From an uncultured Myxococcales bacterium (GTDB lineage Bacteria > Myxococcota_A > Polyangia > JAAYKL01): DNA of 64,000 nt. This document shows, piece by piece, positions 2,253 to 24,012 of this stretch (positions are counted from its first letter, which is position 1; each line of letters begins with the position of its first letter). The stretch lies in assembly GCA_964458775.1 (NCBI GenBank), contig CAYWLQ010000009.1, forward strand, positions 3,077 to 67,076, in the 5' to 3' direction. A model generated the notes under the pieces. The model made no database searches, was not told where the DNA came from, and was given only the letters and a program-made list of their open reading frames with translations. The position numbers and the translations under genes were made by a program.

Positions 2253-3803
2253 TTATTTTAGCAATTTGGCAAATCTTGCCTGAATCTTTTCAGGTAATAG
2301 CTTAATTATAAAGATTTTATCTTCCTTTCTAAAAATCAGTACCCAAATAGCGAACAAAATCGCAATACCGGCAATCATGCTTGAAACAGCCAATCGAGCC
2401 CAGCTGTCAATATTGAATAATTTGACTGGCAGCGCGAAAACGATAACAACAGGGATTGACAGCAAGGGATACAGCATGGGCCTTAAAATCGTGCTTAGTT
2501 TTTCATTCATAATCTTTGCAGCATATATGGGTTTGATTATACAACTATCGATTGTAAACATGATCATGCCTGATATTGCGATACCATAAATGCCAAGAGC
2601 AGTGAAATATGAAAGAAATACGGCAATAGCAACGTAAATAAAACCGCACACTAGCGATTGAATTGCAGGCGTTTTTACTCTATTGAAAGATATGAAAACG
2701 GTACCCAAAGAAACAGTTGAAACATGAAGCGGCAACATGACGAGCATGAGACTTAGGAGCATCCAGGTATGGGAAAACTCTTCACCTACCCAGATAGTCA
2801 TTAGATTGTATGATTGAACTACTAAGACACCACAAACAATTGACATGAATACGCCGGTCGATTTGATTGACATTGTCACGACATATTTTAAGCGCTTCAA
2901 ATCATTCCGTGCATATGCTGCCATAATAAGCGGCATGACGAGCGTAGACAATACCGAAACTACTGACATCACAGCGTTTAGCCATTGCTCCGCGACTGCC
3001 CATTCACTGGCTTCAACCACACCAACAAAACGATTGGCAATAAGTATATTCGAACGGGAATATAGCAGAACACCTACCAAACTAACAATACTCCAAACCG
3101 ACATGCGTAGAATTTCTCGGAGTTTTTCTTTGTCAAAGATTCGTGGTTTTATAACCATCTCAGGTGTTAACTTACGCCAGTAATAAACTCGAATAATATT
3201 AGCCAAAATTGACACAATAAGTAACGACAATCCAGTGTAGAAAATTTTTGGAGCATCAAACGTGAAGAATAGAACTATTAAAACTGTGCGCCCGATATGT
3301 TTGAATATCTCTACACCCTGTTCAACATCCAACCTATTGTTAGCAAAGATAGGAGCTGTAAATACTGCGCATCCTACATTTAATACAAAGGCGATCGATG
3401 AAAAGAGCATTAGGGAAAAAAAATCGTCTTTTAACTCTAGCGGAATAGTAAATATTTCCCCAAGACTGTAAAGTATAATCGTCCATACAGGAATTTGGAT
3501 TATAGATAAAACTAAGTTGGCTCGAAGGGCAGTATTAAAAGTATTATTTCCTTCAATCCAATCCTTTCTTTGTATATCAACTATTAGGAACCGAGAAGTT
3601 GCACCGTTAATTGAATTTGTAATAAATATTATATACTCGGACAGCATATAAGCCATGGGTACAAAACCGTACGCAACTTTTCCCAGATGATTTACCAGAT
3701 AAGTAGTAAGCCACATTCCAACTACAATACGTGACGCTACGCCGATGACAATTAAGAGTAAATTCTTAAGAACTTGTTTTTTTTCAGATATTCTTTCAGA
3801 CAT
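2253..3803 (-). CDS. wzx: Wzx-type polysaccharide flippase (MOP/PST superfamily)
   Basis: About 500 aa with 12-14 predicted TM helices, of typical Wzx length and architecture. The likely start is the internal Met (MSERISEKK) preceded by AAGG, so the ORF track's start at 3842 is probably too long. The gene lies inside the glycosyltransferase/Wzy cluster. Confidence 0.6.
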   Translation of the reverse strand: MSERISEKKQVLKNLLLIVIGVASRIVVGMWLTTYLVNHLGKVAYGFVPMAYMLSEYIIFITNSINGATSRFLIVDIQRKDWIEGNNTFNTALRANLVLSIIQIPVWTIILYSLGEIFTIPLELKDDFFSLMLFSSIAFVLNVGCAVFTAPIFANNRLDVEQGVEIFKHIGRTVLIVLFFTFDAPKIFYTGLSLLIVSILANIIRVYYWRKLTPEMVIKPRIFDKEKLREILRMSVWSIVSLVGVLLYSRSNILIANRFVGVVEASEWAVAEQWLNAVMSVVSVLSTLVMPLIMAAYARNDLKRLKYVVTMSIKSTGVFMSIVCGVLVVQSYNLMTIWVGEEFSHTWMLLSLMLVMLPLHVSTVSLGTVFISFNRVKTPAIQSLVCGFIYVAIAVFLSYFTALGIYGIAISGMIMFTIDSCIIKPIYAAKIMNEKLSTILRPMLYPLLSIPVVIVFALPVKLFNIDSWARLAVSSMIAGIAILFAIWVLIFRKEDKIFIIKLLPEKIQARFAKLLK

Positions 3804-3931
3804 TCTCTGAGACCTTTTGTATGAAAACGTTTTACAACGCAATTGGTGGAATGGCTTATCGCAATATGATTAAAATGAGTGTATTTTTTGAAACTCTGCT
3901 TTACAAAAAGCAATCGTATCATATGGAGATA

Positions 3932-8932: not shown

Positions 8933-10402
8933 TTATCCGTCATCTTTTAAGCCGCCTGTCTGCATGACCAAATTCGAAACACATGCTATAGGGGTACACA
9001 GCAAGATGGCAGAATCTGTGCAACCTAAACCTACGTCACCATAACATTGTACCAAAAAGATGGGTATCATGCACATAGCTGCAGTGGCTGTTACACGATG
9101 GATTGATTTTTGACTTGTGCGATATGTCCTACTTGCAAGAAAAACTCCAACCGGCATAAAAATCCATGTAAGAAAAAATCCGAAAATTCCCGTATATGCT
9201 AGGTGTCCCAATAAGTGATTATGTGGATTATATCGGTAGTTGTACTCAAAGACTATTCCAATCAAAGGCTCATCATATGGATGTCCCCATCCGGTTCCAA
9301 ACAAGGGTCTTTTACGAAATGTTTGTATTAAATTGTAATTTTCCACATGGCGAACCCAGTTTGATGCGTCTCGATCGTCTCCAACTGAAATTATACTGTG
9401 CACCGGTGCAAATATTTTTGAGTTAGAATTCATTCCTGCAATAAAATACAATATTATTATCGGCATCATTACCAAAATAACGCGAATAAACCACCAGCGT
9501 AATTGACTCTTTATGTTAAAAAAGATGGTAATCATGCCGAATGCCAATGAAACGAAAGCAATTCGTCTATCATTGACAATGATGCCGTACATTACAATGC
9601 CGCCTACTACCAGAAGATTAACAAGTGCCTTTTTCGTTTTTTCTTCTATTAGATTTGCAACAAGAATAAGTTCTAATAGTACAAACCACACTGTCTCATA
9701 GTGGGTCATAACGTATTCAACCTGCAAACCCTGCGGACGTACAAAGGCAAAGTAGAAATATGCGCCTTCCACAACGTGAGCTATGCATGCTATTGCCAGG
9801 CCGATTGCCAAACGCCGAAAATCCTTTTCAGTCTTAAACGCACGCATACAAATAATTAAAAATAACGCAGACCATAAAGGAGTTCGCATTTGATAAAAAG
9901 CTTCCGTGAGATTTCCGCCTCTTAAAACCCCATAGGTTGTTGAAAAAATAACGGCACCGAGAGCTGCCAATGAAGCTATTTTCATTGGCTTGGCTGCTGT
10001 ATAGGTAAGATGCCTATCGATATTATTTCGCGTTATTGTACGAACTAGAATAACGATTAAAAAGATGACAAATACGATTTCTTGAATACTGAATATCAAA
10101 ATGGGAATACCGGTTAGGTTATGCAACAGTCCATAGATAATATTTCCAAATAGAGTTAAGGGTCCATTCCATATGCCGGAGGCAGGAATGTGCGCTGGAT
10201 TATTGACGAGAAGTAAGAAGATCCAAAAGGCCAACACTGTATGACGAAGCGGCAATCGGATTATAGCAATGATAGCAGCAATCGCCAAAAAAGGGGCAAT
10301 CGCTACAGCAATATTTCCGTTGGTTAATCCTAAAAGCACTGCCACCGCTAAAACTGAGACAACAGAAAGAAGTATATTATATTTATTTGCCAAACTGAGC
10401 AT
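8933..10402 (-). CDS. wzy: Wzy-like polysaccharide polymerase / O-antigen-ligase family membrane protein
   Basis: About 12 TM helices with a large periplasmic loop. The position matches a Wzx/Wzy pathway. Confidence 0.5.
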   Translation of the reverse strand: MLSLANKYNILLSVVSVLAVAVLLGLTNGNIAVAIAPFLAIAAIIAIIRLPLRHTVLAFWIFLLLVNNPAHIPASGIWNGPLTLFGNIIYGLLHNLTGIPILIFSIQEIVFVIFLIVILVRTITRNNIDRHLTYTAAKPMKIASLAALGAVIFSTTYGVLRGGNLTEAFYQMRTPLWSALFLIICMRAFKTEKDFRRLAIGLAIACIAHVVEGAYFYFAFVRPQGLQVEYVMTHYETVWFVLLELILVANLIEEKTKKALVNLLVVGGIVMYGIIVNDRRIAFVSLAFGMITIFFNIKSQLRWWFIRVILVMMPIIILYFIAGMNSNSKIFAPVHSIISVGDDRDASNWVRHVENYNLIQTFRKRPLFGTGWGHPYDEPLIGIVFEYNYRYNPHNHLLGHLAYTGIFGFFLTWIFMPVGVFLASRTYRTSQKSIHRVTATAAMCMIPIFLVQCYGDVGLGCTDSAILLCTPIACVSNLVMQTGGLKDDG

Positions 10403-10683: not shown

Positions 10684-12039
10684 CTACGGTTCCATATATC
10701 TCTTTCGCGCTGCAATATTTATATATACTATAAATTCCTCAAATGCTCTTACTCGAAGATTCTCCGACCACAATTCTGCCCACCTTGCGTTGCTTGTAAT
10801 ACCAAAATTCAATCTTATATCCGAATTAAACCCTGATTCCGATGAAAGCAAATAGCTTGCTCCCAGATTTAAATATGCCGTTGTGGGATAATCTGTTGGA
10901 ATAATGTCTGCCTCTGGGTTTCTATTGGCAAATGAAGTTGTGAACAAAGATGAAATAGTCCCCGAAGCAAGAATCGACCATTCTGACGTTAAATCCAAAT
11001 CTATTCCAATAGAGAACAGTAACCTTTGTCTACTTGATGCTGTCATTTGATCCAAGTAAGAATTGTAAGTTCCGGACATGTTCAAGTTTAAAATTTTTCG
11101 TTTCTTTAAATTAAATCGTTGGCTGTATGCGATTGTTCCCAAGGGCGATACCTGTGATGACGATAAGCTATCATCTAAGCCGGTCTCTCTTTCATAATCG
11201 TTGTCACCAATTACATACAACGCAAGCAAACCGGCCGAAATGCTAAGCATTAAATTTTCTGTGAAGGCGTGGCGCCAACCTGTTGTGCCTTGAATGGTTA
11301 AAAGATTCATTCCGGGAACAAACATGTTGATGCCGATAATGGCGGCGGCATTCAATTCATCACGCCTTGTGATCGCATGATTGTGGTTTAAACTCAAAGT
11401 AGTTTGATATCGATCCGCTAAGCGAACTTCTTCGCTTTCGCTGTAACCATATGTTCGATATGTGTTAAAAGATAAAGAGATCCCGCTGCCTGCACGACGA
11501 CTCCATCGCTTGTTCAACCCTAAAGACGATGTAATGTTGTAAAAAAAAAGCTCTTGTGCGGGCAGTAAATTGGCTGGAACTTCATTATCAGACACAGAGC
11601 TGTAAAGGGCAGTACTATAATCTAAAAATCCGTTTCTTATTCCTGCTTCTGCTGAAAGAGTCAAGGTACGGGACAGACCGGTAGATAATTGCAATCCTCC
11701 TTGTTGATACAAATTGAGTCTAAATCTGTCTTGCACCATTACATTATTGGATAGTGTGAGAAAGTAGGTTGTTACAAATCGAATTCTTCTAGAAGATATA
11801 GTAAGAACAATTCCGGGTGCTACGTTAGCCTGTGAGGAAACAATACCGGTCTGCCCTTCTTGTGAGCTTATCTCTTCTTCACCTGATGTGTATATATTTG
11901 CAAATAAACCTGTACGACTTCCAACTGTTATACTGGTTTCTAAATCAACATCTGTACTGCTGAATACATGTGTTGAAGAACAGATATTCATTAAAATTAC
12001 GATTGCAAAATGCAACCGAACATGCAAACGAAAATTCAT
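10684..12039 (-). CDS. outer-membrane beta-barrel protein, candidate Wzp-like polysaccharide export porin
   Basis: Signal peptide, then alternating hydrophobic/polar beta-strand pattern rich in S/T/G/N/Y over 451 aa. The gene overlaps the upstream short OPX gene by 4 nt (ATGA). Confidence 0.45.
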   Translation of the reverse strand: MNFRLHVRLHFAIVILMNICSSTHVFSSTDVDLETSITVGSRTGLFANIYTSGEEEISSQEGQTGIVSSQANVAPGIVLTISSRRIRFVTTYFLTLSNNVMVQDRFRLNLYQQGGLQLSTGLSRTLTLSAEAGIRNGFLDYSTALYSSVSDNEVPANLLPAQELFFYNITSSLGLNKRWSRRAGSGISLSFNTYRTYGYSESEEVRLADRYQTTLSLNHNHAITRRDELNAAAIIGINMFVPGMNLLTIQGTTGWRHAFTENLMLSISAGLLALYVIGDNDYERETGLDDSLSSSQVSPLGTIAYSQRFNLKKRKILNLNMSGTYNSYLDQMTASSRQRLLFSIGIDLDLTSEWSILASGTISSLFTTSFANRNPEADIIPTDYPTTAYLNLGASYLLSSESGFNSDIRLNFGITSNARWAELWSENLRVRAFEEFIVYINIAARKRYMEP

Positions 12040-12635
12040 TCTACAACGATGACATCACCGGCTTTGAGCCTAAAATTAATTCCATATCTCGAACTCGTGG
12101 TGAGACTGTTGTAATTGAAACGTATTCTATCCGGCAACTCCTTGGATCTCAAAACATATATACTTTTTTTATTCGCAAACTCTGTTAATCCGCCTGCCTG
12201 CGCCAGTATATCAAGAATTGTATCATTTGTTCTGAGTTCAATTCTTCCCGGAGATGCAATCTCTCCTAAAACGGTTACATATTCTGGAGATACTTGTCGA
12301 GATATTACTACCACTCTAACATCGTGAACTATTCCCCCTTGCTCAAGTTTATTCTTTATTAAATCTGCTGTTTCTAAAGGCGTAGTTCCTACTACCGACA
12401 ACTCTCCTACAAGGGGTAAGCTGATTACACCATCCATGCGTACTCGGTATATTCCTGAAATCTGTGATTGATCCCAAACCACAACCTCAACTTCATCGCC
12501 ATACTGTATTCGGTATTCTTGAATTTTTAACTCTTCAGCCGCCGGTAGGTGCTCTACCCAGACAAACGGAGAACCGCATGATAGTTGTAGTAATGATGTT
12601 ACAAAAAGACTTAAACAATTAAAAAACAAACGCAT
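12036..12635 (-). CDS. wza: short (class-3-like) Wza/OPX polysaccharide export protein
   Basis: Signal peptide followed by Poly_export (PES) and SLBB motifs ('YRIQYGDEVEVVVW', 'DGVISLPLVGELSVVGTT', 'LDILAQAGG', 'AGDVIVV'). Only 199 aa, so the C-terminal outer-membrane-spanning helix of full-length Wza is absent. Confidence 0.8.
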   Translation of the reverse strand: MRLFFNCLSLFVTSLLQLSCGSPFVWVEHLPAAEELKIQEYRIQYGDEVEVVVWDQSQISGIYRVRMDGVISLPLVGELSVVGTTPLETADLIKNKLEQGGIVHDVRVVVISRQVSPEYVTVLGEIASPGRIELRTNDTILDILAQAGGLTEFANKKSIYVLRSKELPDRIRFNYNSLTTSSRYGINFRLKAGDVIVVE

Positions 12636-12660: not shown

Positions 12661-14124
12661 TCATATTCTATCTGATTCGTCTAACTCACCCAATACCGGG
12701 ATGCCGAGCACGCGTGATACCTGCCATGTCTCCAAAATAAGTCCGGTTTTTAAATCTGCAAAAACCGATAAAAAAGCACCGAGAAACAATCCTGCGACGA
12801 TTGCACCGATTATAATTAACTTTGTTTTTGGACCGCTTGGTCCAGTAGGCATGCGTGGAGGCTGAGTAACTTGAAATCGATATTTGAGAGCGCTTTTCGC
12901 GGCTTCGTATTGGATATTTGCGTTTAGCAGCGCTTCCTCTGCGGTATTTCTGGCAATTTTTGCTCTTGTATACTCTTCTAATTTCTCTTCATCCTCAATA
13001 GAGAGTTTTTGTTCCCTGGAAACAGCAGAAACTGCGCTTGGCCTTCCTCTGCGTATCGTGGGCATCGTAGTAGACGATGCGGCAGCAGCCAGCTCTTTTG
13101 CTTTGGTAATACGGGCCAAAATAGTTTCTTGCTCAGATCTAATCTTTTCAATTGAAGGCGGAGGAGAAGAGAGGAGCTTGACAAGTTGTTCTGCCTTAAT
13201 AACCTCAGGATGTTGCGGTCCCATGGTCAACTGTAGTTCAGCCAATCTACTTTTTGCTTCGTTTACTCTCTGCAAATATGTCTGTTGAAGCAACTCCGTC
13301 TCCCGCCTTTTAAGATTGAGCTCTCGTTCAAGGTCCTCGATATCCTCACCGATTTGAACAGCGGCGGAAGTCGGCTCCGGTTCAATTTTGGGGGATAATA
13401 CCTTTGGGGGTTTCCTATCGGTCTCATCGGATGCAGCAATAGGGATCTTATCCTTGTTATATATTTCACGATAACGTTGTTCTGCATCACTGAGAATTTC
13501 GTCTGCTCTAGCGAGTCGCATTTTGGCCGTTTCAATATTTACCAAATAACCTGTGTCTTCTTGGTTAAGTTGGTCTTCTAAATAATTATTTACGAGTTTT
13601 TCAGCAATAAGAAATGCCATCTTTGCATCTCTCCAAATTACATTAAAAGTAACCACATTACCTTCGGACCAAACGCTAAAATTTTCATAGAAATAATCAG
13701 TTACACCGTCCAGTAATTGTTCTTCTGTGGGAGAGTTGTCTGAAATAAAAGAAAAAATATAAGCTCTAATTTTCCCCAAAGGCGATCTGTTTTTTTGTGC
13801 ACTGTCGACAAGATTTAGATCTTTTACAATAGATTTTATGTTTCCTCTGGATCTGATTAATTCAATAGACGAATTGCGTTCTTCATAAGGCCGGATGTCT
13901 ATTAACTTTCCTGATGGGTGGGTTAAAATACTCGCACTCACACGATATGTTATCGGAAGCACCTGAATCAGCGCGATACTCAAACCGACAACAAAAAACA
14001 GAACCGCTCCAATCATAATTCGATGACGCATTATAGAGCGCCATACGAATCCTATCAAATACCAAGCGTCGCTCAATAAATGCGCCAATTCATTTTCGGT
14101 TTCAACGTTTTTGTTATCTTCCAT
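12661..14124 (-). CDS. polysaccharide co-polymerase (Wzz/PCP family) without a fused kinase domain
   Basis: N-terminal TM, a long coiled-coil periplasmic region, and a C-terminal TM 'KLIIIGAIVAGLFLGAFLSVFADL'. No Walker motifs. Confidence 0.65.
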   Translation of the reverse strand: MEDNKNVETENELAHLLSDAWYLIGFVWRSIMRHRIMIGAVLFFVVGLSIALIQVLPITYRVSASILTHPSGKLIDIRPYEERNSSIELIRSRGNIKSIVKDLNLVDSAQKNRSPLGKIRAYIFSFISDNSPTEEQLLDGVTDYFYENFSVWSEGNVVTFNVIWRDAKMAFLIAEKLVNNYLEDQLNQEDTGYLVNIETAKMRLARADEILSDAEQRYREIYNKDKIPIAASDETDRKPPKVLSPKIEPEPTSAAVQIGEDIEDLERELNLKRRETELLQQTYLQRVNEAKSRLAELQLTMGPQHPEVIKAEQLVKLLSSPPPSIEKIRSEQETILARITKAKELAAAASSTTMPTIRRGRPSAVSAVSREQKLSIEDEEKLEEYTRAKIARNTAEEALLNANIQYEAAKSALKYRFQVTQPPRMPTGPSGPKTKLIIIGAIVAGLFLGAFLSVFADLKTGLILETWQVSRVLGIPVLGELDESDRI

Positions 14125-14304: not shown

Positions 14305-16785
14305 TCAGTCTTTTAGCCGCATACCAAGTAGGTAGCCGTATAGAGCGGTCTTGCCGCGCATGGTCTGTTGGGGAGTGAACTCCGAGTGTGCATATACATA
14401 TCTGGTATTGAAAAACATCTCGGCTCGCGGCCAGTTACCCGGTGCTTCGGGATAGCATTTCTCTGTCATCCAGCTGGGTTTACCCATTATACTATTGGGC
14501 GTCCAGTCATTAAGGCCCATATAGGGAGTATGCCCCGGATGCATTCCCGGGGTACCGTCATTTCGGCCGGAGGTATAGGCTGCTTCAATGCTGCGCTTGT
14601 TCGCCAGGGGAGTGGTTGCGGTGGTCATCTGGATGAGGTTGGCCGGATTGCGCCCCATGCTCCAGTCGGCCTCCAGCACCAGTGCCCTTTCGAAGAAGGC
14701 TTTGTCCGCCGGATCCGTTGCAACCGCGTGGGCCAGGATCGTTCGATGAACAAACTGGATGGTGTGAAAGTAGCCTGTCAGGTTATCTGTAGACCGTCTT
14801 GAAGGTCGCGTTTTTGAGTAGCCGGCTTCCTTTTCCTTTGCCTGGCGGATGACTGAGTTTCGCATATCGGCATGAAGCTGTTTATGGTGAACTTCCCGTT
14901 CAGTGGTCAGATAGGCGGCCATGGCATAGAGCTGGTTGCGTTTGAGGTGTTGAGTAAATTCCGAAGTGCCGTCTGTGACGAGGCTCTCTTCTTTTATAAT
15001 ATCTTCATAAGCGGTATCGCCGGTTAGATTATAGAGAAAAGCCGCAGCGGTCATACGAAAATCTCGGCCATAGAAGCCGGATTCTCCCACTCCCTGAAGG
15101 GTATCCGGCATTTGTTCAGGCAGGTTTGATGCGTAGTTCCAAGCTTCCAGAGCCGCATTGAGATAGGTGTCGGATAAATCCTTATTTCCAAAAATTCTAA
15201 ATGCCTCAGACAGCATGGCGGCGTTTGTCGCATTTGCCCACGCCGCAATCGCCGTGTTGTCGGCCTGATACAATATATTGGTTTTCCTGTCCGGATTTGA
15301 CAAACCGTGGCTGTAGCCTCCTTCAAATCGCATAGATAACCAAAAATCGACTTCATTGCGTGCTTCATCGATAATATCCGGGATACCGTTGCCGCTCTCT
15401 GCTATACCCAGCTCGTCCGAGGAGATGGCGCCGCGGGTGAGAATGTACGGCAGGAGCATATCGTAGATGATAGAAACATGTCCAATGTGGCGGTCCCAGT
15501 CCAGTGCGTCGCTGTGGCCTCCCTTTGCGTTAGGATTTTCAGGGCTGCCCTCCTTGATGTACTTGGCAAAGAAATCCGGTTGATCCCATCGATCACCTCC
15601 GCCCTCCCATTCCGGCCTATACGGATGCATGTCAGTAATTAACACCTTGCAGTTCTTGGGATCTTTTCCGGGAATCCATAGGGGACGGCGAGGTACGGGA
15701 GTCATGTCCATGTTGTCCTGACCGATTCGCATGTAGAAGAATCCAAGTACAGAGACCCTAAAAGGCTCAAACACCGCACGCTCGCCTATGACGAAGTTTT
15801 GACTCGCGCCTACCCCTTCAACGACCAATCGGTATACTCCAGGTGCATGATTTCCGTCGAAATCAACATTCCATACATCAGATTGAATTAAATGATATCC
15901 TTGGACCTCGGCACTGTTCTTTTTCCAGAAAGAGACTTTTCCTACTTCATTGGATTCTTTGGTTTCTATATTATACAAGTACACCTTGTTACCTTCGAAA
16001 GACGCATAGTCACGAGCGCCGCCGTCCCCCATCCACATATAAAGATCCGCCGCCTTCACTGCAGACTTAGGATGATACCCCGAAAGGTTTACATGAATCG
16101 CTTCGGAGCGATTATTAAAAATATCAAAGGTAAAGCTATACTTCTCCACATCCGTGTTGGTCGCGGGATCTATAATCAATGTATATGTTTTGCCTTGGAC
16201 CATGGGGCGGGGCAGCTTGAGAAATATATGGTGTTCCATGGTGTGCTCAAATCGATAGTCGTTCCACCTCCATTCCCCTATTGCCATTCCATTCAGCTTT
16301 GACTTTCGATAGCTTGCCGTAGGATGAATTCCTTTATCGCTGTAGTGTTCGTCGTCCGTAGAGGTAACTGTCCAGGACGAAAGGGACCCGGTCGCCGAAG
16401 TGTTTAGCGGCTTGTCATAGCGTACTGTATAGTTATCTATTTGGTCATTGCAGTTTTCATAGGGGCAAGAGTTGTGACCGTTATCTCTGAAGAAAACATC
16501 CCCGTCCCGAAAACGCACCATCAAGTAGTCTTGATCGAGTACCTTTACACCCCTAAACTTCTTTTTTTCAAAGCCCTCTTCATCCGGATCGCGAGATGTA
16601 TCCCATAACGGGTCAGTATCCTTTCCTGAGGTACCGGTCGTTGTGGTTTTCTGTTGTTCATTGATGTGTTCTTCAGAAGAAGACGAGCTTTTCGTGTTGC
16701 ATGCCTTGCTAGCGCAGGCGGCAATCAAGACAGTAAGGCTCAAATAAATCGCTACAGCTCCGAATCGAAAAATTACATTATTCAT
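14305..16785 (-). CDS. secreted lipoprotein, glycoside hydrolase family 9-like (Ig-like N-domain plus (alpha/alpha)6 catalytic domain)
   Basis: Lipobox 'LIAAC'. 'AKGGHSDALDWDRH' resembles the GH9 'GGWYDAGD' motif, with an Ig-like domain upstream of it. The start was taken at MNNVIF (16785), which has an AGGGA RBS. Confidence 0.5.
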   Translation of the reverse strand: MNNVIFRFGAVAIYLSLTVLIAACASKACNTKSSSSSEEHINEQQKTTTTGTSGKDTDPLWDTSRDPDEEGFEKKKFRGVKVLDQDYLMVRFRDGDVFFRDNGHNSCPYENCNDQIDNYTVRYDKPLNTSATGSLSSWTVTSTDDEHYSDKGIHPTASYRKSKLNGMAIGEWRWNDYRFEHTMEHHIFLKLPRPMVQGKTYTLIIDPATNTDVEKYSFTFDIFNNRSEAIHVNLSGYHPKSAVKAADLYMWMGDGGARDYASFEGNKVYLYNIETKESNEVGKVSFWKKNSAEVQGYHLIQSDVWNVDFDGNHAPGVYRLVVEGVGASQNFVIGERAVFEPFRVSVLGFFYMRIGQDNMDMTPVPRRPLWIPGKDPKNCKVLITDMHPYRPEWEGGGDRWDQPDFFAKYIKEGSPENPNAKGGHSDALDWDRHIGHVSIIYDMLLPYILTRGAISSDELGIAESGNGIPDIIDEARNEVDFWLSMRFEGGYSHGLSNPDRKTNILYQADNTAIAAWANATNAAMLSEAFRIFGNKDLSDTYLNAALEAWNYASNLPEQMPDTLQGVGESGFYGRDFRMTAAAFLYNLTGDTAYEDIIKEESLVTDGTSEFTQHLKRNQLYAMAAYLTTEREVHHKQLHADMRNSVIRQAKEKEAGYSKTRPSRRSTDNLTGYFHTIQFVHRTILAHAVATDPADKAFFERALVLEADWSMGRNPANLIQMTTATTPLANKRSIEAAYTSGRNDGTPGMHPGHTPYMGLNDWTPNSIMGKPSWMTEKCYPEAPGNWPRAEMFFNTRYVYAHSEFTPQQTMRGKTALYGYLLGMRLKD

Positions 16786-17051
16786 GTTGTTTCCCTTCCG
16801 CACAGAACCTATTTTTGAATATCTATCAATCCAACAATACAAAACAAACGTTTTCGTAACAATTGCCTTTTGTGAAATGGCACGACTTTGGAAGGAGTCC
16901 CATTCCCGATACTGTTATATCTGTCTAGAAACCGAAAGAAACACCGCAAATCGAAACCCAAACTCTGCCTTAATTGCAAATATACGCGTCATTTTCAATT
17001 GGTTTTTCAGTTGCTAAATTCGAAAGAAGGCTGCCATGGTTATCAGAATGC

Positions 17052-17675
17052 CTACAAAGAGTCTTTAGATTTAGGCTTGAAGACAATACTTCCCAAAACT
17101 TGTTCTTGACCGATAATTTCAACTGTTCTGCGAACATCTTTGAAAGTTGTCCTTCCTAACCTAACGCAAAGTATTACAGCATCCACTTTCCGGCAGAGTG
17201 ATATGGGAGATGTGTTGTTTATCACAGAATTCACAGCGAAAACAAAACGCATATTTTGATTTTGATTTTCATTTTCTGAATATTTATCAAGCATCCACTC
17301 TGCTGTTATAAGTTGCTTTTCCGTCGTCACACCCAGAGTGGGAAGGTCCACGAATTTGTAGGGAAATTTGCTGTCTTCTTGCCCATGAACGCTTAAGTCG
17401 TGTTCGGTAACCTGGTTGTCAGCCCTATTGGAAGCATTCACTACCCAAATCAAATCGTGGGGTTCTCTAACGGCCATCAAACCAATTCCATGTGCAAATT
17501 CCAGAACGTCGATATCGTCGGTTACCGGAACCAGTGCAAGCGAAGCCCATTTCTTTCTCCGTACCATCTCGTACCAGATGTGCTGCACAGCCAAGGGAGG
17601 AAGTGCAGCATCAAGGTAGAGCTTTTTTTCGCTGTGCCTATTTTTTTTAGGGTATCTAGTAATTATATCGGTCAT
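17052..17675 (-). CDS. BY-kinase/ParA-fold-like protein lacking a Walker A P-loop (degenerate)
   Basis: The C-terminal 'VDAVILCVRLGRTTFKDVRRTVEIIGQEQVLGSIVFKP' matches the BY-kinase C-terminal consensus. The expected P-loop position reads 'KKWASLALVPV' instead of GxxGxGKS/T. Confidence 0.35.
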   Translation of the reverse strand: MTDIITRYPKKNRHSEKKLYLDAALPPLAVQHIWYEMVRRKKWASLALVPVTDDIDVLEFAHGIGLMAVREPHDLIWVVNASNRADNQVTEHDLSVHGQEDSKFPYKFVDLPTLGVTTEKQLITAEWMLDKYSENENQNQNMRFVFAVNSVINNTSPISLCRKVDAVILCVRLGRTTFKDVRRTVEIIGQEQVLGSIVFKPKSKDSL

Positions 17676-17905
17676 GTTTGTTATATTACAAATTGTAAGT
17701 CACAATGATATTAAGCGATAATCTTTTTAAGTAAAACAGAAATCATACTGATATAAGTAATCTGTATGTCATTGTGATAAGCAGGCACTAACCTCTTCAA
17801 CTATTAGAACATCTATTCTATTCTGTCGAATACTCAAAGCCGCAAACACTACATGTTCTAAGTTCAGCGAGTTCACTGTGTCACACATGAAAGAAACATA
17901 ATGTT

Positions 17906-19345
17906 TTAGTAGGCGTTCTGTCGTGTCTTGCGCCCGAAAACTGTCAGAAAAATAATTTTTAGGTCGAGCAGCGGGGTCCACTCCCGGATGTAGCGGAGGT
18001 CGTATTCCACGCGTTTTTGCATTTTCTCATCAGTATCGGTTTCACCCCGGTAGCCGTTCACTTGGGCCAAGCCGGTAATGCCCGGTTTTACTTTATGCCT
18101 TACCATGTAGTGATCTATAAGACCGCGATATTGCTCGTTGTGGGCGACCGCATGGGGCCTTGGGCCGACGATGGACATTTTTCCGGTAATCACATGCAGA
18201 AATTGGGGTAACTCGTCCATCGAAGTTTTTCTCAAAAAGGCACCGATCCGTGTTATCCGCGGGTCGTCTTTTGTTGCTTGACGGACATCCGTACCGTTTT
18301 CCATGACGCTCATTGATCGAAACTTCAACACATCAATTGGTTCACCGTTGAGACCGTAGCGAGTTTGTTTGAAAAAAACCGGACCCTTACTGGTCAACTT
18401 AATGGCAAGTGCAATAGCAATCATGGGAATTGCGGTAATGGCTAACAAAACTATACCAAGCAATACATCTTCAATCTGCTTTACCGCACCCATCATACCG
18501 TTGTATGGCGATTCTACGATTCCTAGCACGGACACATCGCCAAGTTGACTCCAACGCGGGGCGGTTCTTCTGGAAAGCAGGTTGAACCCGCTGAAATCGT
18601 GCGCGATGTAAATGGATGCGGTGGTGCGTCCCAATTGCCTTGTCAGTTCGGCAATGCGAGATTCGGCCCTCATGGGTAAGGCGATGTAGACACGATCAAT
18701 ATCTCCATTTTGGGCGCTTTCGACCAGCTCTTGGTAGTTACCTAAGAAGGGGCCGAGGGCTTCGCTGCCATCCGGTCGTCGTTTCACATTACGGTCTTCG
18801 TAATGTCCTACAATATCAATTCCGAGCCAGGGTTTCAGGGTAATACTTTTAGCAAGTTGCGCGCTCATGTTGGTTACGCCGGCAATGACTGCTTTTTTTG
18901 TATTATGACCGCCGGCTCTCACGGTTCTGAGCGCAACAGCTACTAATACGTGGCAGATCGAAACAAACAAGGGAGCCATAATGAACCAGGTTGTTGTAAT
19001 AATGCGAGAATAACTGTCAGTTACTTTGGCCATAAAGCCAATCATCAACAGTCCGGCGATAGCGATAGCCCAGGCAGACCAAATTCGACCGATGTGCCCC
19101 GAAAGATTATCATCCCGATAGGAGCTGTATACTCCGCTTATCTCGGCGAACAAGCCAAAAAGCAATGCTCCCAAAATGCCTGAAACGAGATAAAAACTCA
19201 TCCACGGCTGCCCGAAAATCAAACAGGTTGCATATAGCACCAGCACAATTGTCAAGCCATCCGTAATACGGGCAAGCCACCGCATAATTGTAATATTTTC
19301 AAATATTTTTTGAATTAAGCTAATTTTCAACATACACAATAACAA
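17906..19345 (-). CDS. polyprenyl-phosphate hexose-1-phosphate transferase (WbaP/EpsB-type priming glycosyltransferase)
   Basis: N-terminal TM block, and a C-terminal bacterial sugar transferase domain ('KGPVFFKQTRYGLNGEPIDVLKFRSM', 'DELPQF', 'MSIVGPRPH'). Confidence 0.85.
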   Translation of the reverse strand: MLLCMLKISLIQKIFENITIMRWLARITDGLTIVLVLYATCLIFGQPWMSFYLVSGILGALLFGLFAEISGVYSSYRDDNLSGHIGRIWSAWAIAIAGLLMIGFMAKVTDSYSRIITTTWFIMAPLFVSICHVLVAVALRTVRAGGHNTKKAVIAGVTNMSAQLAKSITLKPWLGIDIVGHYEDRNVKRRPDGSEALGPFLGNYQELVESAQNGDIDRVYIALPMRAESRIAELTRQLGRTTASIYIAHDFSGFNLLSRRTAPRWSQLGDVSVLGIVESPYNGMMGAVKQIEDVLLGIVLLAITAIPMIAIALAIKLTSKGPVFFKQTRYGLNGEPIDVLKFRSMSVMENGTDVRQATKDDPRITRIGAFLRKTSMDELPQFLHVITGKMSIVGPRPHAVAHNEQYRGLIDHYMVRHKVKPGITGLAQVNGYRGETDTDEKMQKRVEYDLRYIREWTPLLDLKIIFLTVFGRKTRQNAY

Positions 19346-19435: not shown

Positions 19436-21208
19436 CTACTTTTTTTCGTCAAACTTACCTTTAGTTTTTGGTGCATCAACACCGATCAGGGTTGCTCTGG
19501 CAGAGTCGATGGGGGGAATTGTGCTAATGGGTTCACGATTAGCGGCCGGCGGAACTGAGCTTGTTTTTCTTATCGAGTGTTGGACCATGGTGTCCTTCTT
19601 AATCGTTTTCTCCAATTCCTTCATCATAGCTTCCATCTGTTGAAATCGAATCTCCAGGGACAATAACCCTGCATTTGTACCGGTCTTGGTTTGGTCGTCT
19701 TTTTTGTTATTAGTGTCAAGCAACGGCTCTGTCTTACTAAGCTTTGATTCCAAGCCGCTTAGGCGTTCCTCAAAAGATGCGATAATCGTCTGGGGGCTCT
19801 TGGATAATGCTTTGGACTGTTGCTCCAATTCGGTTAATGCCGCTTCAAATGCTGAAAATCGTCGGTCCATTCCGGCCAAATGATTTTTTATCGACAACTG
19901 CGCTTTTTTCAATTCTTCTATTTCTTCCAGATTATCGCTTTTAGGAACAGCATCACTTGATGCAGATGTTCTTCCTTCAACGAGTTCGGAGGACCTTTGC
20001 TCCAGCTTTTTAACCCGGCTCTCAAGCTTCTTGAGGACTATCTGGGTATCCCACAAATCTTCGAATTGACCGGCAAAATTTTCACTGTGCTCTCCTGCAC
20101 CGACCGACCGTCCCAGCCGAGCTATCGCAATCTCAATATCGGCAAAGCGACTTTCGATTTCTAAAGACAGTGATTCCAACTCACCTTTTCCAATTCCGGA
20201 ATCGGGTTTGGGCGGTACGGAAGAAAGTCCGGTAATTTGACTTAAAAGATCATCAATACGGTCTTGAAAATAGAACTCCCGCTCAGTGCCCTTCCCTTCC
20301 ATATTGGTTATTGCGGCTTGGAGAGCATCAATCTGAGAATTTCTCTCATGAGCCGACAGACTAATCCTTTCCATGTTTACTTCGATCTGCCTATCAGCGG
20401 GTTGCATCTTTGCCGAGGGGTCTTTCAAAACAGCATAAATCTCGTCAATCGTACGATCGCTTTTTGCAGCAACCGCCTTAATCATAGATTTAAGTTCAGC
20501 GTAAAACTCGGCTCCCTCAGCTGCCACAGCGTTGATGAACAGTCCGTTATCCGTAACGGAATTTCGAGTTTCTTGCGTTAGCTCGTTCAGCTGCTTTTGA
20601 AGCTCTAGTATCATCTCAGACTGTCTAGATAGCCGGTCTGCAAACACATTTGATATTTTATGCTGCGATTCGACAGCTTCTACTGAAACATCGAAGCCTT
20701 TTGACAACTCCAACGGTGAGACACTGTTCGTCACCGGCATTTTCGAATTAGAGCTGACCTTTTGCGATGTTGGTTCGTAATTTTGTGCATCTGTTGCTTT
20801 GGGCGGAGGAGGGTAGCTGTCCGTGCTGTGCACACCGAACAACGGATTAACGAGCAGCTTTTGAGCCAGATTGACAACAGCCTCCACTTCACGACGGTCT
20901 ACGATATGTCGAATCCCTTCAAGGCTAACAACGGCTTCCTTTGAATTTGCCACAACAATTACCGGAATATTGGTGCGGGCCGCAAGGCGAAATAGCAGAT
21001 TGAATTCCCCTGCATTTTCATCAATTCCACAAATAACAAGAGCAGGAGAATTAAGATGAAAACGCCGCATCGCCGTCGAAAAATCTGATACCTTAACAAT
21101 CTTGAGCCGGCCTTCCTCCCGATTGTCTAATATAGTACAAAATTCGTCTGCATTAACCGCCAATACAGTGAGCACCTGACTCACATCTTCTTTATGGTTA
21201 CCATCCAT
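19436..21208 (-). CDS. FrzS/AglZ-like protein: N-terminal pseudo-receiver domain plus a long coiled coil
   Basis: The first 120 aa or so follow the REC pattern ('VLTVLAVNAD', 'PALVICGID', 'IPVIVVANS') with a degenerate acidic pocket. About 400 aa of heptad-rich, Glu/Leu/Lys/Ser-rich coiled coil follow. Confidence 0.4.
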   Translation of the reverse strand: MDGNHKEDVSQVLTVLAVNADEFCTILDNREEGRLKIVKVSDFSTAMRRFHLNSPALVICGIDENAGEFNLLFRLAARTNIPVIVVANSKEAVVSLEGIRHIVDRREVEAVVNLAQKLLVNPLFGVHSTDSYPPPPKATDAQNYEPTSQKVSSNSKMPVTNSVSPLELSKGFDVSVEAVESQHKISNVFADRLSRQSEMILELQKQLNELTQETRNSVTDNGLFINAVAAEGAEFYAELKSMIKAVAAKSDRTIDEIYAVLKDPSAKMQPADRQIEVNMERISLSAHERNSQIDALQAAITNMEGKGTEREFYFQDRIDDLLSQITGLSSVPPKPDSGIGKGELESLSLEIESRFADIEIAIARLGRSVGAGEHSENFAGQFEDLWDTQIVLKKLESRVKKLEQRSSELVEGRTSASSDAVPKSDNLEEIEELKKAQLSIKNHLAGMDRRFSAFEAALTELEQQSKALSKSPQTIIASFEERLSGLESKLSKTEPLLDTNNKKDDQTKTGTNAGLLSLEIRFQQMEAMMKELEKTIKKDTMVQHSIRKTSSVPPAANREPISTIPPIDSARATLIGVDAPKTKGKFDEKK

Positions 21209-22311: not shown

Positions 22312-24012
22312 TTACCATGGATGAACCTCGTCTATGATTCTAACAGGACGATCATCTTTTGTATTGGAGGCATTGTTCTTAGAATCATCTTTGGGCTTTG
22401 TATTCGGATCATCAGGTTTGGTTTGTGGTGTATTAACATGGGGACGCAATACGATTTTTTCGGAATGAGTGTTTGATGCGGGTTTTGACTTGTTGTCAGG
22501 TAATAATTGAACAACTAGTTTTGTATTCTTGTCAAATACTACATCTTTTCGAAAAACTATAAATCCCGAAGCGGTTATTTCTATAGAGTGTTTCTGCTGA
22601 TCGTACGGTACATGCAAATTTACGGATCCAAGAGGATTGAGAACACCGTCAATGGAGACTTGTGCATTGGGAGGCGATACATCAATTTCTAAAGCGACTG
22701 TTTGATTTGCAAAAGAAAGTGTCGCTTTTTCATTTTCAGTTTTTGTGTCCCTGCTATTTTTGTCAATAGTATTTGTATTATCCACAGAAGACGGACTCTT
22801 TTCATTAACAACACCTGTTTCAGCCGGAAGTGTTGTAACTAGGGGAGTTAAAGGTGTTTCTTTTTTGTCGGCTTGATTGTTCTGAACCAAGAGTTGGTAA
22901 GCTGCTATTGCCAAGATCATAGCTGCTATTGTCAGAGCGGCAATAATCACTCCAAATCCTCTGTTTTGTTTCGGTTTGCTGATAGTCTCTGTCAATTGCA
23001 GAGATGTATTGTCAGTCTGATAGTTTCCAGTTTGTAAATCAAAAGAAGAGCTAAGTGCAGAATCTCTAAAACGTGTTACTCCCAAACCGGTTTGGCAAGC
23101 TGTATTTGGTGAGAATTGATTAATAGCCCTCCTAAAAGAGGCAGCATCTGCAAATCTTTTGCCTGGATTTTTTTCAATGGCCTGCATTACAGCATCGGAT
23201 AATGCAGGCGGAATTGAGGGCACCAACTCACAAGGACTCGGAGGTGTCTCTCCGATAATCTTCAGAAGAAGCATTGTAAGTGCTTTTTCTTCAAAAGCAG
23301 TTTTACCTGTCAAAATTCTGTAGAGAATTAGTCCGACAGAGAAGATGTCGGTATGGTGAGTAATATTTGTTTCACCGCGAGCCTGTTCGGGTGACATATA
23401 TGAAGGAGTTCCTAGAAGTTCGCCGGTACGTGTCAAACCTTCATGTTCACTCTCTTCTTCTTTAATTTTAGAAATTCCAAAATCTACAAGTTTAACATAG
23501 TCTTCTGCATCTCGATTACAGACCAAAAAGATATTCGCCGGTTTTAGGTCACGATGAATAATCCCCTTTGAATGAGCAGCTTCCAATGCTGATAATACTT
23601 GTATAGTAATATGACAAGCTCTTTCGGGATCAAGTCGCTTTCCATCTGCCAGACATGTTGCTAGATCTATCCCATCAAGATATTCCATAACAATATAGAG
23701 TTCGCCGCTTTCAGTGAATCCCATATCTGTGACATCAACGATGTGATCATGACCGATTGCAGAGGCAGCTTGTGCTTCACGACGAAAACGCTCCGCAACA
23801 CCTGGGTCATGCGCATACTCTGCATGTAGTAGTTTTATGGCTAGTCTACGATTTATAAGTTTGTGTTTAGCCTCATAGACTACCCCCATGCCGCCTCGTC
23901 CGAGCATACGAACAAGCTCATATTTTTTTTCAAGAATTCGACCAATATAGGGGTCGGCCAGTTGTGTATCTCTCAATCGAACATCTCCGCTGAATCCATT
24001 AAATGGTCGCAA
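22312..24012 (-). CDS. Hanks-type Ser/Thr protein kinase with TM segment and C-terminal PEGA domain
   Basis: 'LGRGGMGVVYEA', 'AIK', 'HRDLKPANIFL', 'DFGISK' and 'SPEQ'. TM 'IIAALTIAAMILAIAAY'. C-terminal 'VSIDGVLNPLGSVNLHVPYDQQKHSIEITASGF' is a PEGA fold. Confidence 0.9.
   Translation of the reverse strand: MRPFNGFSGDVRLRDTQLADPYIGRILEKKYELVRMLGRGGMGVVYEAKHKLINRRLAIKLLHAEYAHDPGVAERFRREAQAASAIGHDHIVDVTDMGFTESGELYIVMEYLDGIDLATCLADGKRLDPERACHITIQVLSALEAAHSKGIIHRDLKPANIFLVCNRDAEDYVKLVDFGISKIKEEESEHEGLTRTGELLGTPSYMSPEQARGETNITHHTDIFSVGLILYRILTGKTAFEEKALTMLLLKIIGETPPSPCELVPSIPPALSDAVMQAIEKNPGKRFADAASFRRAINQFSPNTACQTGLGVTRFRDSALSSSFDLQTGNYQTDNTSLQLTETISKPKQNRGFGVIIAALTIAAMILAIAAYQLLVQNNQADKKETPLTPLVTTLPAETGVVNEKSPSSVDNTNTIDKNSRDTKTENEKATLSFANQTVALEIDVSPPNAQVSIDGVLNPLGSVNLHVPYDQQKHSIEITASGFIVFRKDVVFDKNTKLVVQLLPDNKSKPASNTHSEKIVLRPHVNTPQTKPDDPNTKPKDDSKNNASNTKDDRPVRIIDEVHPW

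What the first reader, a model, noticed from the sequence alone, without database searches (positions are those of the whole stretch)
17052..17675. BY-kinase-like protein with no P-loop sitting between the primer GT and the PCP
The C-terminal half of this 207-aa protein follows the BY-kinase/ParA-fold consensus (VDAVILCVRLGRTTFKDVRRTVEIIGQEQVLGSIVFKP compared with the xDGVLLVVRAGKT...LGVVLN pattern). Where Walker A should be, it reads KKWASLALVPV. The PCP in this locus has no kinase domain. So the locus may use a catalytically dead BY-kinase paralog as a structural partner of the PCP. That would be a pseudo-enzyme regulator of chain length or export, which is not a standard component.
Basis: partly seen in the sequence, partly recalled or inferred. 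Interest (0 to 1): 0.55.

Follow-up and report, generated by a model that had tools for sequence, protein, structure and literature searches.

The report
Dead tyrosine-kinase partner of polysaccharide co-polymerase
This small conserved protein has the fold of a bacterial tyrosine kinase but has lost every catalytic motif, and it most likely acts as a non-enzymatic scaffold for the kinase-less co-polymerase of an exopolysaccharide export machine; this arrangement was described in 2025 for EcpK/EpsV of Myxococcus xanthus, so it is a new member of a known kind.

Summary
ORF 17052-17675 (-) encodes a conserved 207-aa protein under purifying selection (dN/dS about 0.09).

- **Motifs:** Walker A, A' and B and the C-terminal Tyr cluster are all absent. 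No frame near the ORF hides a P-loop. No real BY-kinase lies anywhere in the 64 kb.
- **Locus:** it is a Myxococcus-EPS-type Wzx/Wzy locus with EpsZ-like PHPT, EpsV-like PCP without a kinase, EpsY-like OPX, a putative beta-barrel, Wzy and Wzx.
- **Homology:** the protein's clade matches (hhalign 99.3%, E 5e-20) the clade that sits beside epsD, where ecpK lies in M. xanthus, in a Byssovorax MAG eps cluster.
- **PCP tail:** the PCP ends in a 32-residue cytoplasmic tail that aligns with the post-TM2 linker of fused kinases.

Blocher et al. 2025 (PMC12004946) showed that EcpK is a BY pseudokinase that binds EpsV, and HfsB/HfsA in Caulobacter is similar. I file this as a divergent new member of a known kind. 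Binding to the PCP is inferred here, not shown.

The parts
17052..17675 (-). BY pseudokinase (207 aa), EcpK-like. BY-kinase fold without Walker A/A'/B or a Tyr tail.
17505..17531 (-). Residues 49-57 (VPVTDDIDV): the loop after beta-1 where Walker A (GxxxxGK[ST]) sits in BY-kinases. Here it is acidic and has no Gly/Lys/Ser-Thr signature.
   Evidence: Global hhalign register pairs 'pgeGKS' with 'PVTDD-ID'. AF2 secondary structure: E45-50, loop, H58-69. None of the top 150 family representatives has a BY-kinase-type Walker A at this position. The regex found only two stray matches elsewhere in the proteins (P0033 residue 71, P0119 residue 108), which I did not inspect.
17424..17450 (-). Residues 76-84 (IWVVNASNR): the position of Walker A' (hhhhDxDxR). 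Both Asp are replaced (N80, S82).
   Evidence: hhalign alignment 'rvLLvDaDLRr' vs 'rVLVVNAS'. Family alignments.
17223..17246 (-). Residues 144-151 (FVFAVNSV): the position of Walker B (hhhhDTPP). Degenerate. Most family members read AVDS; this protein reads AVNS.
   Evidence: PDB VpsO alignment. hhalign. Family alignment.
12661..14124 (-). PCP-2 without a kinase domain (487 aa), EpsV-like. The putative membrane partner.
   Evidence: NCBIfam NF041864 EpsV is the best hit, E 9.7e-41 (139.8 bits, below the 800-bit cut-off). Weak Wzz and GNVR Pfam hits. No BY-kinase match in any frame of the window.
12664..12759 (-). Cytoplasmic C-terminal tail of the PCP (residues 456-487, DLKTGLILETWQVSRVLGIPVLGELDESDRI). 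The predicted docking segment for the pseudokinase.
   Evidence: Aligns with the post-TM2 linker of fused Wzc-type kinases and shares the motif E.WQV.R.L.IPVL.E with Byssovorax EpsV tails. The EpsV tail is the modelled EcpK-binding element (PMC12004946).
17906..19345 (-). Initiating phosphoglycosyl transferase (PHPT), WcaJ/EpsZ-like.
   Evidence: TIGR03023 E 1.2e-149, above cut-off. Pfam Bac_transf and CoA_binding_3.
14305..16842 (-). GH9-like glycoside hydrolase, probably a lipoprotein, lying between the pseudokinase and the PCP.
   Evidence: Pfam Glyco_hydro_9 E 5e-17. The same gene follows the pseudokinase in the closest relative, L024.
12036..12635 (-). Short periplasmic OPX protein, EpsY-like.
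   Evidence: NF041843 EpsY E 7.1e-40. Pfam Poly_export and SLBB.
10684..12039 (-). 451-aa protein overlapping the OPX gene by 4 nt. Candidate outer-membrane beta-barrel partner (EpsX-like). The evidence is weak.
   Evidence: No Pfam or NCBIfam hit. The orthologue in L021 has a faint PF28089 EpsX hit. An HMM of 4 orthologues hits L004 EpsX at E 1e-5 in a 7-sequence set. Same gene order as EpsY-EpsX in L003 and L004.
8933..10402 (-). Wzy-type repeat-unit polymerase.
   Evidence: NF041870 Wzy_EPS E 4.7e-91. Pfam Wzy_C.
2253..3842 (-). Wzx-type flippase.
   Evidence: Pfam Polysacc_synt E 6.2e-9.

Best explanation
The 207-aa product is a bacterial tyrosine (BY) pseudokinase of the EcpK type. It keeps the Rossmann-like BY-kinase core but cannot bind or hydrolyse ATP and has no tyrosines to phosphorylate.

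It is the cytoplasmic half of a split, phosphorylation-independent PCP-2. It docks on the roughly 32-residue C-terminal cytoplasmic tail of the kinase-less EpsV-like co-polymerase (12661-14124). That tail supplies the alpha-1/beta-1 element which is part of the kinase domain in fused Wzc proteins.

By binding and possibly oligomerising under the membrane, it stabilises or organises the PCP assembly. That assembly couples Wzy polymerisation to export through the EpsY-like OPX and putative beta-barrel translocon.

Shown here: the fold, the loss of motifs, conservation, homology to the myxobacterial eps-cluster clade, and linkage to the PCP module. Inferred: the physical interaction with the PCP tail, oligomerisation, and a requirement for polysaccharide synthesis.
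For: Fold:
- AF2 model pLDDT 84.9, pTM 0.83.
- The Foldseek PDB top 49 hits are all BY-kinase domains: Wzc 3la6 E 9.5e-6, VpsO, BceF, CapAB, Etk. This is the same set reported for EcpK (PMC12004946).

Sequence:
- hhalign family profile vs BY-kinase profile: 93.6%, E 2e-7.
- TIGR03018 E 1e-4. VpsO E 0.003.

Motif loss:
- Seen. The last Tyr is Y132, 75 residues from the C-terminus.

A functional gene:
- 37 invariant columns among 10 close homologues.
- 648 cluster representatives at E<=1e-3.
- dN/dS about 0.09.

Link to EcpK:
- Clade-to-clade hhalign: 99.3%, E 5e-20 over 144 columns.
- P0182 lies between epsC and epsD homologues in a complete Byssovorax eps cluster, next to epsD as ecpK (MXAN_7447) is in M. 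xanthus.

Locus and synteny:
- The best NCBIfam hits of the neighbours are EpsV, EpsY and Wzy_EPS.
- The order pseudokinase-PCP-OPX-445aa-Wzy is conserved in L019-L021, and PHPT-pseudokinase-GH9 in L024.
- The PCP tail aligns with the fused-kinase linker and with EpsV tails.
- There is no BY-kinase and no LMW-PTP CxGNxCR[ST] motif in the 64 kb.

Published experiments:
- EcpK is needed for EPS synthesis and binds EpsV (PMC12004946).
Against: - The M. xanthus EcpK sequence could not be retrieved, so the link to the characterised protein runs through a positional orthologue in a Byssovorax MAG.
- Identity to that clade is only about 22-26%.
- The window protein lacks the long Lys/Arg-rich C-terminal helix described for EcpK. 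It ends ...FKPKSKDSL. It also carries an insertion (residues about 83-105, low pLDDT) and a basic N-terminus that the description of EcpK does not mention.
- No co-fold or interaction test with the PCP tail could be run.
- Only 64 kb of the genome is visible, so an active BY-kinase and a phosphatase could be encoded elsewhere.
- In this window the gene is nearer to the PHPT than to the PCP.
Confidence: 0.75

Rival explanations
1. The pseudokinase acts on or with the initiating phosphoglycosyl transferase (EpsZ-like, 17906-19345), or another cytoplasmic step, rather than on the PCP. For example, it could serve as an allosteric activator or an assembly factor for repeat-unit initiation.
For: In this window and in the closest relative L024 the gene directly follows the PHPT. 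Regulation of EpsZ through a small protein partner (EpsW) is known in M. xanthus (PMC12802240).
Against: - In L019, L020 and L021 the gene sits at the PCP-OPX module with no PHPT next to it.
- In L022 it sits between the EpsX and Wzx genes.
- In L003 and L004 it lies about 9 kb from the PHPT.
- The PCP tail keeps the linker motif that contacts the kinase domain in fused proteins.
- EcpK was shown to bind EpsV (PMC12004946).
Confidence: 0.08
2. The protein partners with, or regulates, a catalytically active BY-kinase encoded outside the 64-kb window. This would be a pseudokinase-kinase heteromer as in eukaryotes, so the pathway would still depend on phosphorylation.
For: Only a window of the genome was seen. 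M. xanthus itself encodes two active BY-kinases elsewhere (PMC12004946).
Against: No BY-kinase and no LMW-PTP CxGNxCR[ST] motif were found in the 64 kb. In M. xanthus, loss of BtkA, BtkB or PhpA has little or no effect on EPS (PMC12004946). The protein has no Tyr in its last 75 residues to act as a substrate.
Confidence: 0.07
3. The protein still binds a nucleotide or another ligand through non-canonical residues and has an enzymatic or switch function.
For: The overall NTPase fold is retained. Most family members keep an Asp in an 'AVDS' motif near the Walker B position.
Against: - The P-loop is replaced by an acidic, variable loop with no conserved Gly, Lys, Ser or Thr across 66 diverse members. 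The near-invariant residues are W34, W43, A61, D165, G189 and G195.
- The window protein has Asn at the 'AVDS' Asp position.
- Both Walker A' aspartates are lost.
Confidence: 0.05
4. The ORF is a decaying remnant of a former BY-kinase gene with no function.
For: All catalytic motifs are gone. No Pfam family matches.
Against: - dN/dS is about 0.09 against the nearest orthologue.
- There are 37 invariant columns among homologues of 48-73% identity.
- The family has hundreds of cluster representatives, all without Walker A.
- Synteny is conserved.
- The fold is predicted with confidence.
Confidence: 0.02

Closest known systems
EcpK (MXAN_7447, also called WzeX) of Myxococcus xanthus, the BY pseudokinase partner of the PCP-2 EpsV (Blocher et al. 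2025, PMC12004946)
   Same: - A stand-alone small cytoplasmic protein with a reduced BY-kinase Rossmann-like core.
- Its Foldseek matches are the same PDB set: Wzc, Etk, VpsO and CapAB.
- It has no Walker A/A'/B and no Tyr-rich tail.
- It is encoded in a Wzx/Wzy EPS locus whose PCP lacks a kinase domain and whose export uses a short OPX plus a separate beta-barrel.
- The PCP has a short C-terminal cytoplasmic tail.
- The window's clade is homologous (hhalign 99.3%) to the clade that sits beside epsD, where ecpK lies in M. xanthus, in a Byssovorax eps cluster.
   Different: - Identity to that clade is low, about 22-26%.
- The gene position differs: next to the PHPT and a GH9 gene rather than next to epsD and epsC.
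- There is no long Lys/Arg-rich C-terminal helix, only ...KPKSKDSL. Instead the N-terminal 27 residues are basic and disordered.
- There is an extra insertion at residues about 83-105.
- The genome is low in G+C (40.7%).
- The neighbouring Eps-like proteins score far below NCBIfam equivalog cut-offs.
- The M. xanthus sequence itself was not compared.
HfsB/HfsA of Caulobacter crescentus (holdfast pathway)
   Same: A stand-alone BY-kinase-like protein without catalytic residues or a Tyr tail. It works with a PCP-2 lacking a kinase domain in a Wzx/Wzy pathway and is needed for stability of the PCP (as summarised in PMC12004946).
   Different: HfsB was not compared here because no sequence was available. 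The locus here is EPS-type and not holdfast-type. The only Hfs hit, HfsE for the PHPT, scores 252 bits against a 750-bit cut-off.
CapB/CapA of Staphylococcus aureus and other bipartite PCP-2b systems
   Different: CapB is an active kinase with Walker A/A'/B and a Tyr cluster, and it cycles with the phosphatase CapC. None of these features is present here.
Wzc of Escherichia coli (PCP-2a, fused BY-kinase)
   Different: Wzc is a single polypeptide and an active autokinase with an 8-stranded core and a Tyr-rich tail. The window protein is separate, smaller (6 predicted strands) and catalytically dead.

Membership tests
Catalytic BY-kinase (Wzc/CapB/Etk type) | Walker A P-loop, GxxxxGK[ST] | tested here: not met
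   The position reads VPVTDDIDV (residues 49-57) by hhalign and the AF2 secondary structure. No GK[ST] in any frame of 16900-17950. The motif is absent at this position in the top 150 family representatives; two stray regex matches elsewhere in P0033 and P0119 were not inspected.
Catalytic BY-kinase (Wzc/CapB/Etk type) | Walker A' (hhhhDxDxR) and Walker B (hhhhDTPP) | tested here: not met
   A' position: IWVVNASNR, with both Asp replaced. B position: FVFAVNSV.
Catalytic BY-kinase (Wzc/CapB/Etk type) | C-terminal Tyr-rich cluster as autophosphorylation substrate | tested here: not met
   The Tyr residues are at 8, 20, 35, 106 and 132 only. The tail is ...GSIVFKPKSKDSL. Close homologues also lack terminal Tyr.
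Catalytic BY-kinase (Wzc/CapB/Etk type) | BY-kinase fold (SIMIBI-class Rossmann-like core) | tested here: met
Catalytic BY-kinase (Wzc/CapB/Etk type) | Passes curated family models (Pfam, NCBIfam) | tested here: not met
   No Pfam hit at E<=0.1. TIGR03018 scores 21.8 bits against a cut-off of 230.65.
Stand-alone BY pseudokinase with kinase-less PCP-2 (EcpK/EpsV, HfsB/HfsA subfamily) | Structural homology to BY-kinase domains combined with loss of Walker A/A'/B and the Tyr tail | tested here: met
Stand-alone BY pseudokinase with kinase-less PCP-2 (EcpK/EpsV, HfsB/HfsA subfamily) | Encoded in a Wzx/Wzy-dependent locus whose PCP-2 lacks a BY-kinase domain | tested here: met
   The locus holds a PHPT, PCP (487 aa, ends 32 residues after TM2), OPX, Wzy, Wzx and GTs. 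No BY-kinase in the window. Linkage is conserved in relatives.
Stand-alone BY pseudokinase with kinase-less PCP-2 (EcpK/EpsV, HfsB/HfsA subfamily) | Sequence homology to EcpK orthologues | tested here: inconclusive
Stand-alone BY pseudokinase with kinase-less PCP-2 (EcpK/EpsV, HfsB/HfsA subfamily) | PCP partner has a short cytoplasmic C-terminal extension that mimics alpha-1/beta-1 of the kinase domain | tested here: met
   The tail DLKTGLILETWQVSRVLGIPVLGELDESDRI aligns with the post-TM2 linker of 12 fused BY-kinases and with EpsV tails. This rests on sequence only, with no structure.
Stand-alone BY pseudokinase with kinase-less PCP-2 (EcpK/EpsV, HfsB/HfsA subfamily) | Direct physical interaction with the PCP, and a requirement for polysaccharide synthesis | not testable with these tools
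This needs a co-fold, a two-hybrid assay and a deletion mutant.
Stand-alone BY pseudokinase with kinase-less PCP-2 (EcpK/EpsV, HfsB/HfsA subfamily) | Lys/Arg-rich C-terminal alpha-helix (reported for EcpK and several orthologues; not universal) | tested here: not met
   Only 8 residues follow the last strand (KPKSKDSL). Some relatives have long basic tails, for example P0003 ...KKNRRRRPPNKKKRRD.
MinD/ParA deviant-Walker-A ATPases | Deviant Walker A (KGGxGK[ST]) and a closest structural match to MinD/ParA | tested here: not met

The most novel reading that the evidence does not exclude
This low-G+C clade may be a functionally distinct branch of the BY-pseudokinase superfamily. It is about 200 aa long and has three features of its own: a conserved N-terminal helix LPPLxxQHxWYE, a basic disordered N-terminus in place of the basic C-terminal helix, and an extra insertion. 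Its PCP binding might be controlled by inputs other than tyrosine phosphorylation. Related family members carry N-terminal FHA or zinc-ribbon domains, which hints at Ser/Thr-phosphorylation or other signals gating a scaffold-driven assembly cycle. A Ser/Thr kinase gene (22312-24012) and a receiver-like coiled-coil gene (19436-21208) flank this locus.
Probability: 0.12. Interest if true: 0.55.

Novelty: new member of a known kind. Interest (0 to 1): 0.25.

Why it matters
It extends the recently defined phosphorylation-independent PCP-2 subfamily (pseudokinase plus kinase-less co-polymerase) to a divergent, low-G+C lineage known only from uncultured metagenome sequences. It also shows that the family is large: 648 clusters at 50% identity with E<=1e-3, and no canonical Walker A at the expected position in the 150 best.

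This supports the published claim that scaffold-type BY pseudokinases are widespread. The result also gives a usable family alignment and signature: Q[HR]xW...WxSLALVP near the N-terminus and VDxVxLCxxLGxT...IGRExxxG at the C-terminus. No Pfam or NCBIfam model currently annotates these proteins.

It does not open a new question beyond those already posed for EcpK/EpsV.

Tried and rejected
- **AF2 with only the 10 close homologues.** It failed (pLDDT 36). It was rescued with a 56-sequence alignment.
- **Single-sequence or shallow comparisons to BY-kinases.** These were uninformative. The A1 profile against PDB gave only a chance glutaredoxin hit. hhalign of A2 against Wzc alone gave Prob 0.1. 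hhalign of A1 against the BY-kinase profile gave 0.5%. Deeper profiles on both sides were needed.
- **Attempts to obtain M. xanthus EcpK.** The afdb50 Foldseek library was not installed.
- **tblastn of the protein against plasmids.** No match.
- **The listing of cluster members.** It gave no organism names, and literature searches for the sample accessions found nothing. The source organism remains unidentified. The only tRNA in the window is uninformative.
- **Cryptic P-loop after a frame or start correction.** Considered and rejected.
- **MinD/ParA identity.** Considered and rejected.
- **Pseudogene.** Considered and rejected.

Full report
**What is there**

ORF 17052-17675 on the minus strand is real. 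It has an ATG start and encodes 207 aa. The stop-to-stop frame extends only 8 codons upstream. No frame of 16900-17950 contains a GK[ST] motif.

The window has 40.7% G+C. The flanking intergenic gaps are 230 bp and 209 bp.

**It is a real, conserved gene**

- A search of 5.8 billion clustered proteins found 9 close homologues (48-73% identity), all unannotated, with 37 invariant columns.
- An exhaustive HMMER search of 1.84 billion cluster representatives, using that 10-sequence profile, found 648 proteins at E<=1e-3 and 160 at E<=1e-10.
- These are mostly 150-250 aa. None of the best 150 has a BY-kinase-type Walker A. A loose regex gave two stray matches, in P0033 and P0119, which I did not inspect further.
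- Against the nearest orthologue (L024), dN/dS is about 0.09, with dS near saturation.
- No Pfam family matches the protein or 66 diverse relatives.

**It has the BY-kinase fold**

Sequence evidence is weak but consistent:
- TIGR03018 (tyrosine autokinase): E 9.9e-5 over residues 120-197, far below the curated cut-off.
- A 66-sequence profile hits the VpsO kinase domain, PDB 6u1q, at E 0.003.
- I built a BY-kinase-domain profile from E. coli Wzc plus 12 diverse plasmid-borne kinases. hhalign of the 37-sequence family profile A3 against it gave Prob 93.6%, E 2e-7 over 142 columns.

Structural evidence is strong:
- AF2 with 10 sequences failed (pLDDT 36). With 56 sequences it gave pLDDT 84.9 and pTM 0.83. 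The model has six strands and flanking helices, with a disordered residue range 1-27 and a loop at about 83-105.
- Foldseek against the PDB returned BY-kinase domains as all 49 best hits: Wzc 3la6, 7nhr and 9r62; VpsO 6u1q; BceF 6z0p; CapAB 2ved, 4jmp and 4jlv; Etk 3cio. E-values ran down to 9.5e-6 and TMq was 0.53-0.71.

**It is catalytically dead**

In the hhalign register, checked against the predicted secondary structure:

| BY-kinase motif | Consensus | Window protein |
|---|---|---|
| Walker A | PGEGKS/T | V49-PVTDDIDV-57, an acidic loop after strand S45-P50 |
| Walker A' | hhhhDxDxR | I76-WVVNASNR-84 |
| Walker B | hhhhDTPP | F144-VFAVNSV-151 (most relatives read AVDS) |

The last Tyr is Y132, and the C-terminus is ...FKPKSKDSL. 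Across 66 diverse members the only near-invariant residues are W34, W43, A61, D165, G189 and G195. None of these is a phosphate-binding residue.

**The locus**

The neighbours form a Wzx/Wzy pathway of the Myxococcus EPS type:

| Coordinates | Product |
|---|---|
| 17906-19345 | PHPT (TIGR03023, E 1e-149) |
| 14305-16842 | GH9-like hydrolase |
| 12661-14124 | PCP; best hit NF041864 EpsV, E 1e-40 |
| 12036-12635 | Short OPX; best hit EpsY |
| 10684-12039 | 451-aa ORF overlapping the OPX gene by 4 nt |
| 8933-10402 | Wzy; best hit Wzy_EPS, E 5e-91 |
| 6367-7608, 7634-8806 | Two GT4 glycosyltransferases |
| 5118-6431 | UDP-glucose dehydrogenase |
| 2253-3842 | Wzx |

All Eps-type scores are well below the equivalog cut-offs, so these are relatives of the M. 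xanthus proteins and not orthologues in the strict NCBIfam sense.

The PCP ends 32 residues after TM2. A BY-kinase HMM run over all six frames of the 64 kb finds nothing better than the finding ORF itself (E 0.026). I also found no LMW-PTP CxGNxCR[ST] motif in the six-frame ORFs.

**Link to the known system**

Blocher et al. 2025 (PMC12004946) showed four things about M. xanthus EcpK (MXAN_7447):
- It is structurally homologous to Wzc, Etk, VpsO and CapAB kinase domains.
- It lacks Walker A/A'/B and the Tyr tail.
- It is important for EPS synthesis.
- It binds the kinase-less PCP-2 EpsV directly. In models it does so through EpsV's 25-residue C-terminal tail, which mimics alpha-1/beta-1 of the Wzc kinase domain.

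With HfsB/HfsA of Caulobacter, they proposed a third, phosphorylation-independent PCP-2 subfamily.

I could not obtain the EcpK sequence. I could, however, connect the window protein to the ecpK position in another myxobacterium:
- Family member P0182 comes from a Byssovorax MAG. It lies between epsC and epsD homologues in a complete eps cluster.
- The best NCBIfam hits for the genes of that cluster are Wzx_EPS, EpsY, EpsX, EpsW, EpsV, Wzy_EPS, EpsU, EpsC, EpsD and EpsA.
- P0182 thus sits next to the epsD homologue, as ecpK does in M. xanthus. P0181 has the same context.
- hhalign between the two clades gives Prob 99.3%, E 5e-20 over 144 columns, nearly full length. The alignment includes the N-terminal signature Q[HR]xW...WxSLALVP.

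**Linkage to the PCP**

- In close relatives the gene order is pseudokinase, an optional GT, PCP (about 490 aa), OPX (about 198 aa), an approximately 445-aa protein, then Wzy (L019-L021).
- In L024 the order PHPT, pseudokinase, GH9 is identical to the window.
- In a distant member the gene follows the OPX and EpsX genes (L022).
- The PCP tail (DLKTGLILETWQVSRVLGIPVLGELDESDRI) aligns with the post-TM2 linker of fused kinases. It shares E.WQV.R.L.IPVL.E with the Byssovorax EpsV tails.
- So the PCP ends, and the pseudokinase begins, where CapA/CapB and EpsV/EcpK are split.

**Mechanism (inferred)**

The protein most likely docks on the PCP tail at the inner face of the membrane. There it would scaffold PCP assembly without phosphorylation, coupling polymerisation to export.

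Differences from the description of EcpK are:
- no long basic C-terminal helix;
- a basic, disordered N-terminus;
- an extra insertion;
- a different position in the locus.

**Verdict**

The phenomenon has already been published, so this is a divergent new member of a known kind and of modest interest.

Noticed in passing
Proteins P0028, P0036 and P0041 (FHA); P0014, P0017, P0022 and P0023 (zinc ribbon); all: Some members of this Walker-less BY-kinase-like family carry an N-terminal FHA or zinc-ribbon domain fused to the pseudokinase domain. This hints that the scaffold can receive regulatory input, for example phospho-Thr binding.
   Followed up: partly
window 19436-21208 (-): A 590-aa protein lies directly upstream of the PHPT. 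By eye it has a receiver-like N-terminus followed by a long coiled coil, but it has no significant Pfam or NCBIfam hit. M. xanthus uses the single-domain response regulator EpsW to activate EpsZ (PMC12802240). Whether this gene plays an analogous role is untested.
   Followed up: no
window 10684-12039 (-) and 12036-12635 (-): The short OPX gene and the following 451-aa ORF overlap by 4 nt, as EpsY and EpsX do in the Byssovorax locus. The 451-aa protein has no family hit and is only weakly EpsX-like. It may be a divergent beta-barrel half of a composite OPX/beta-barrel translocon.
   Followed up: partly
window 22312-24012 (-) and 26114-26776 (+): A gene with a Ser/Thr protein kinase-like sequence (by eye) and an ECF sigma factor gene lie near the polysaccharide locus. 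A distant family locus (L022) also has Pkinase, Response_reg and ECF sigma genes next to its OPX-EpsX-pseudokinase module.
   Followed up: no
window 14305-16842 (-): An 845-aa GH9-like protein with a lipoprotein-like N-terminus sits inside the export module, between the pseudokinase and the PCP. It is conserved in the closest relative, L024. Relatives L019 and L020 instead carry a GH5 (Cellulase) gene further along.
   Followed up: no
window 3932-4792 (-): A DUF6492 protein (E 2e-29) is encoded between the Wzx flippase and the UDP-glucose dehydrogenase genes of the locus. Its function is unknown.
   Followed up: no
window 17052-17675, residues 28-43 of the protein: The helix before beta-1 carries a family-wide signature, LPPLxxQHxWYExxRxRxW, with W34 invariant in 66 sequences. 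It occupies the position of the helix that bears the EX2RX2R oligomerisation motif in active BY-kinases. That motif assignment is from my own knowledge. Whether the helix mediates ring formation or PCP contact is unknown.
   Followed up: no
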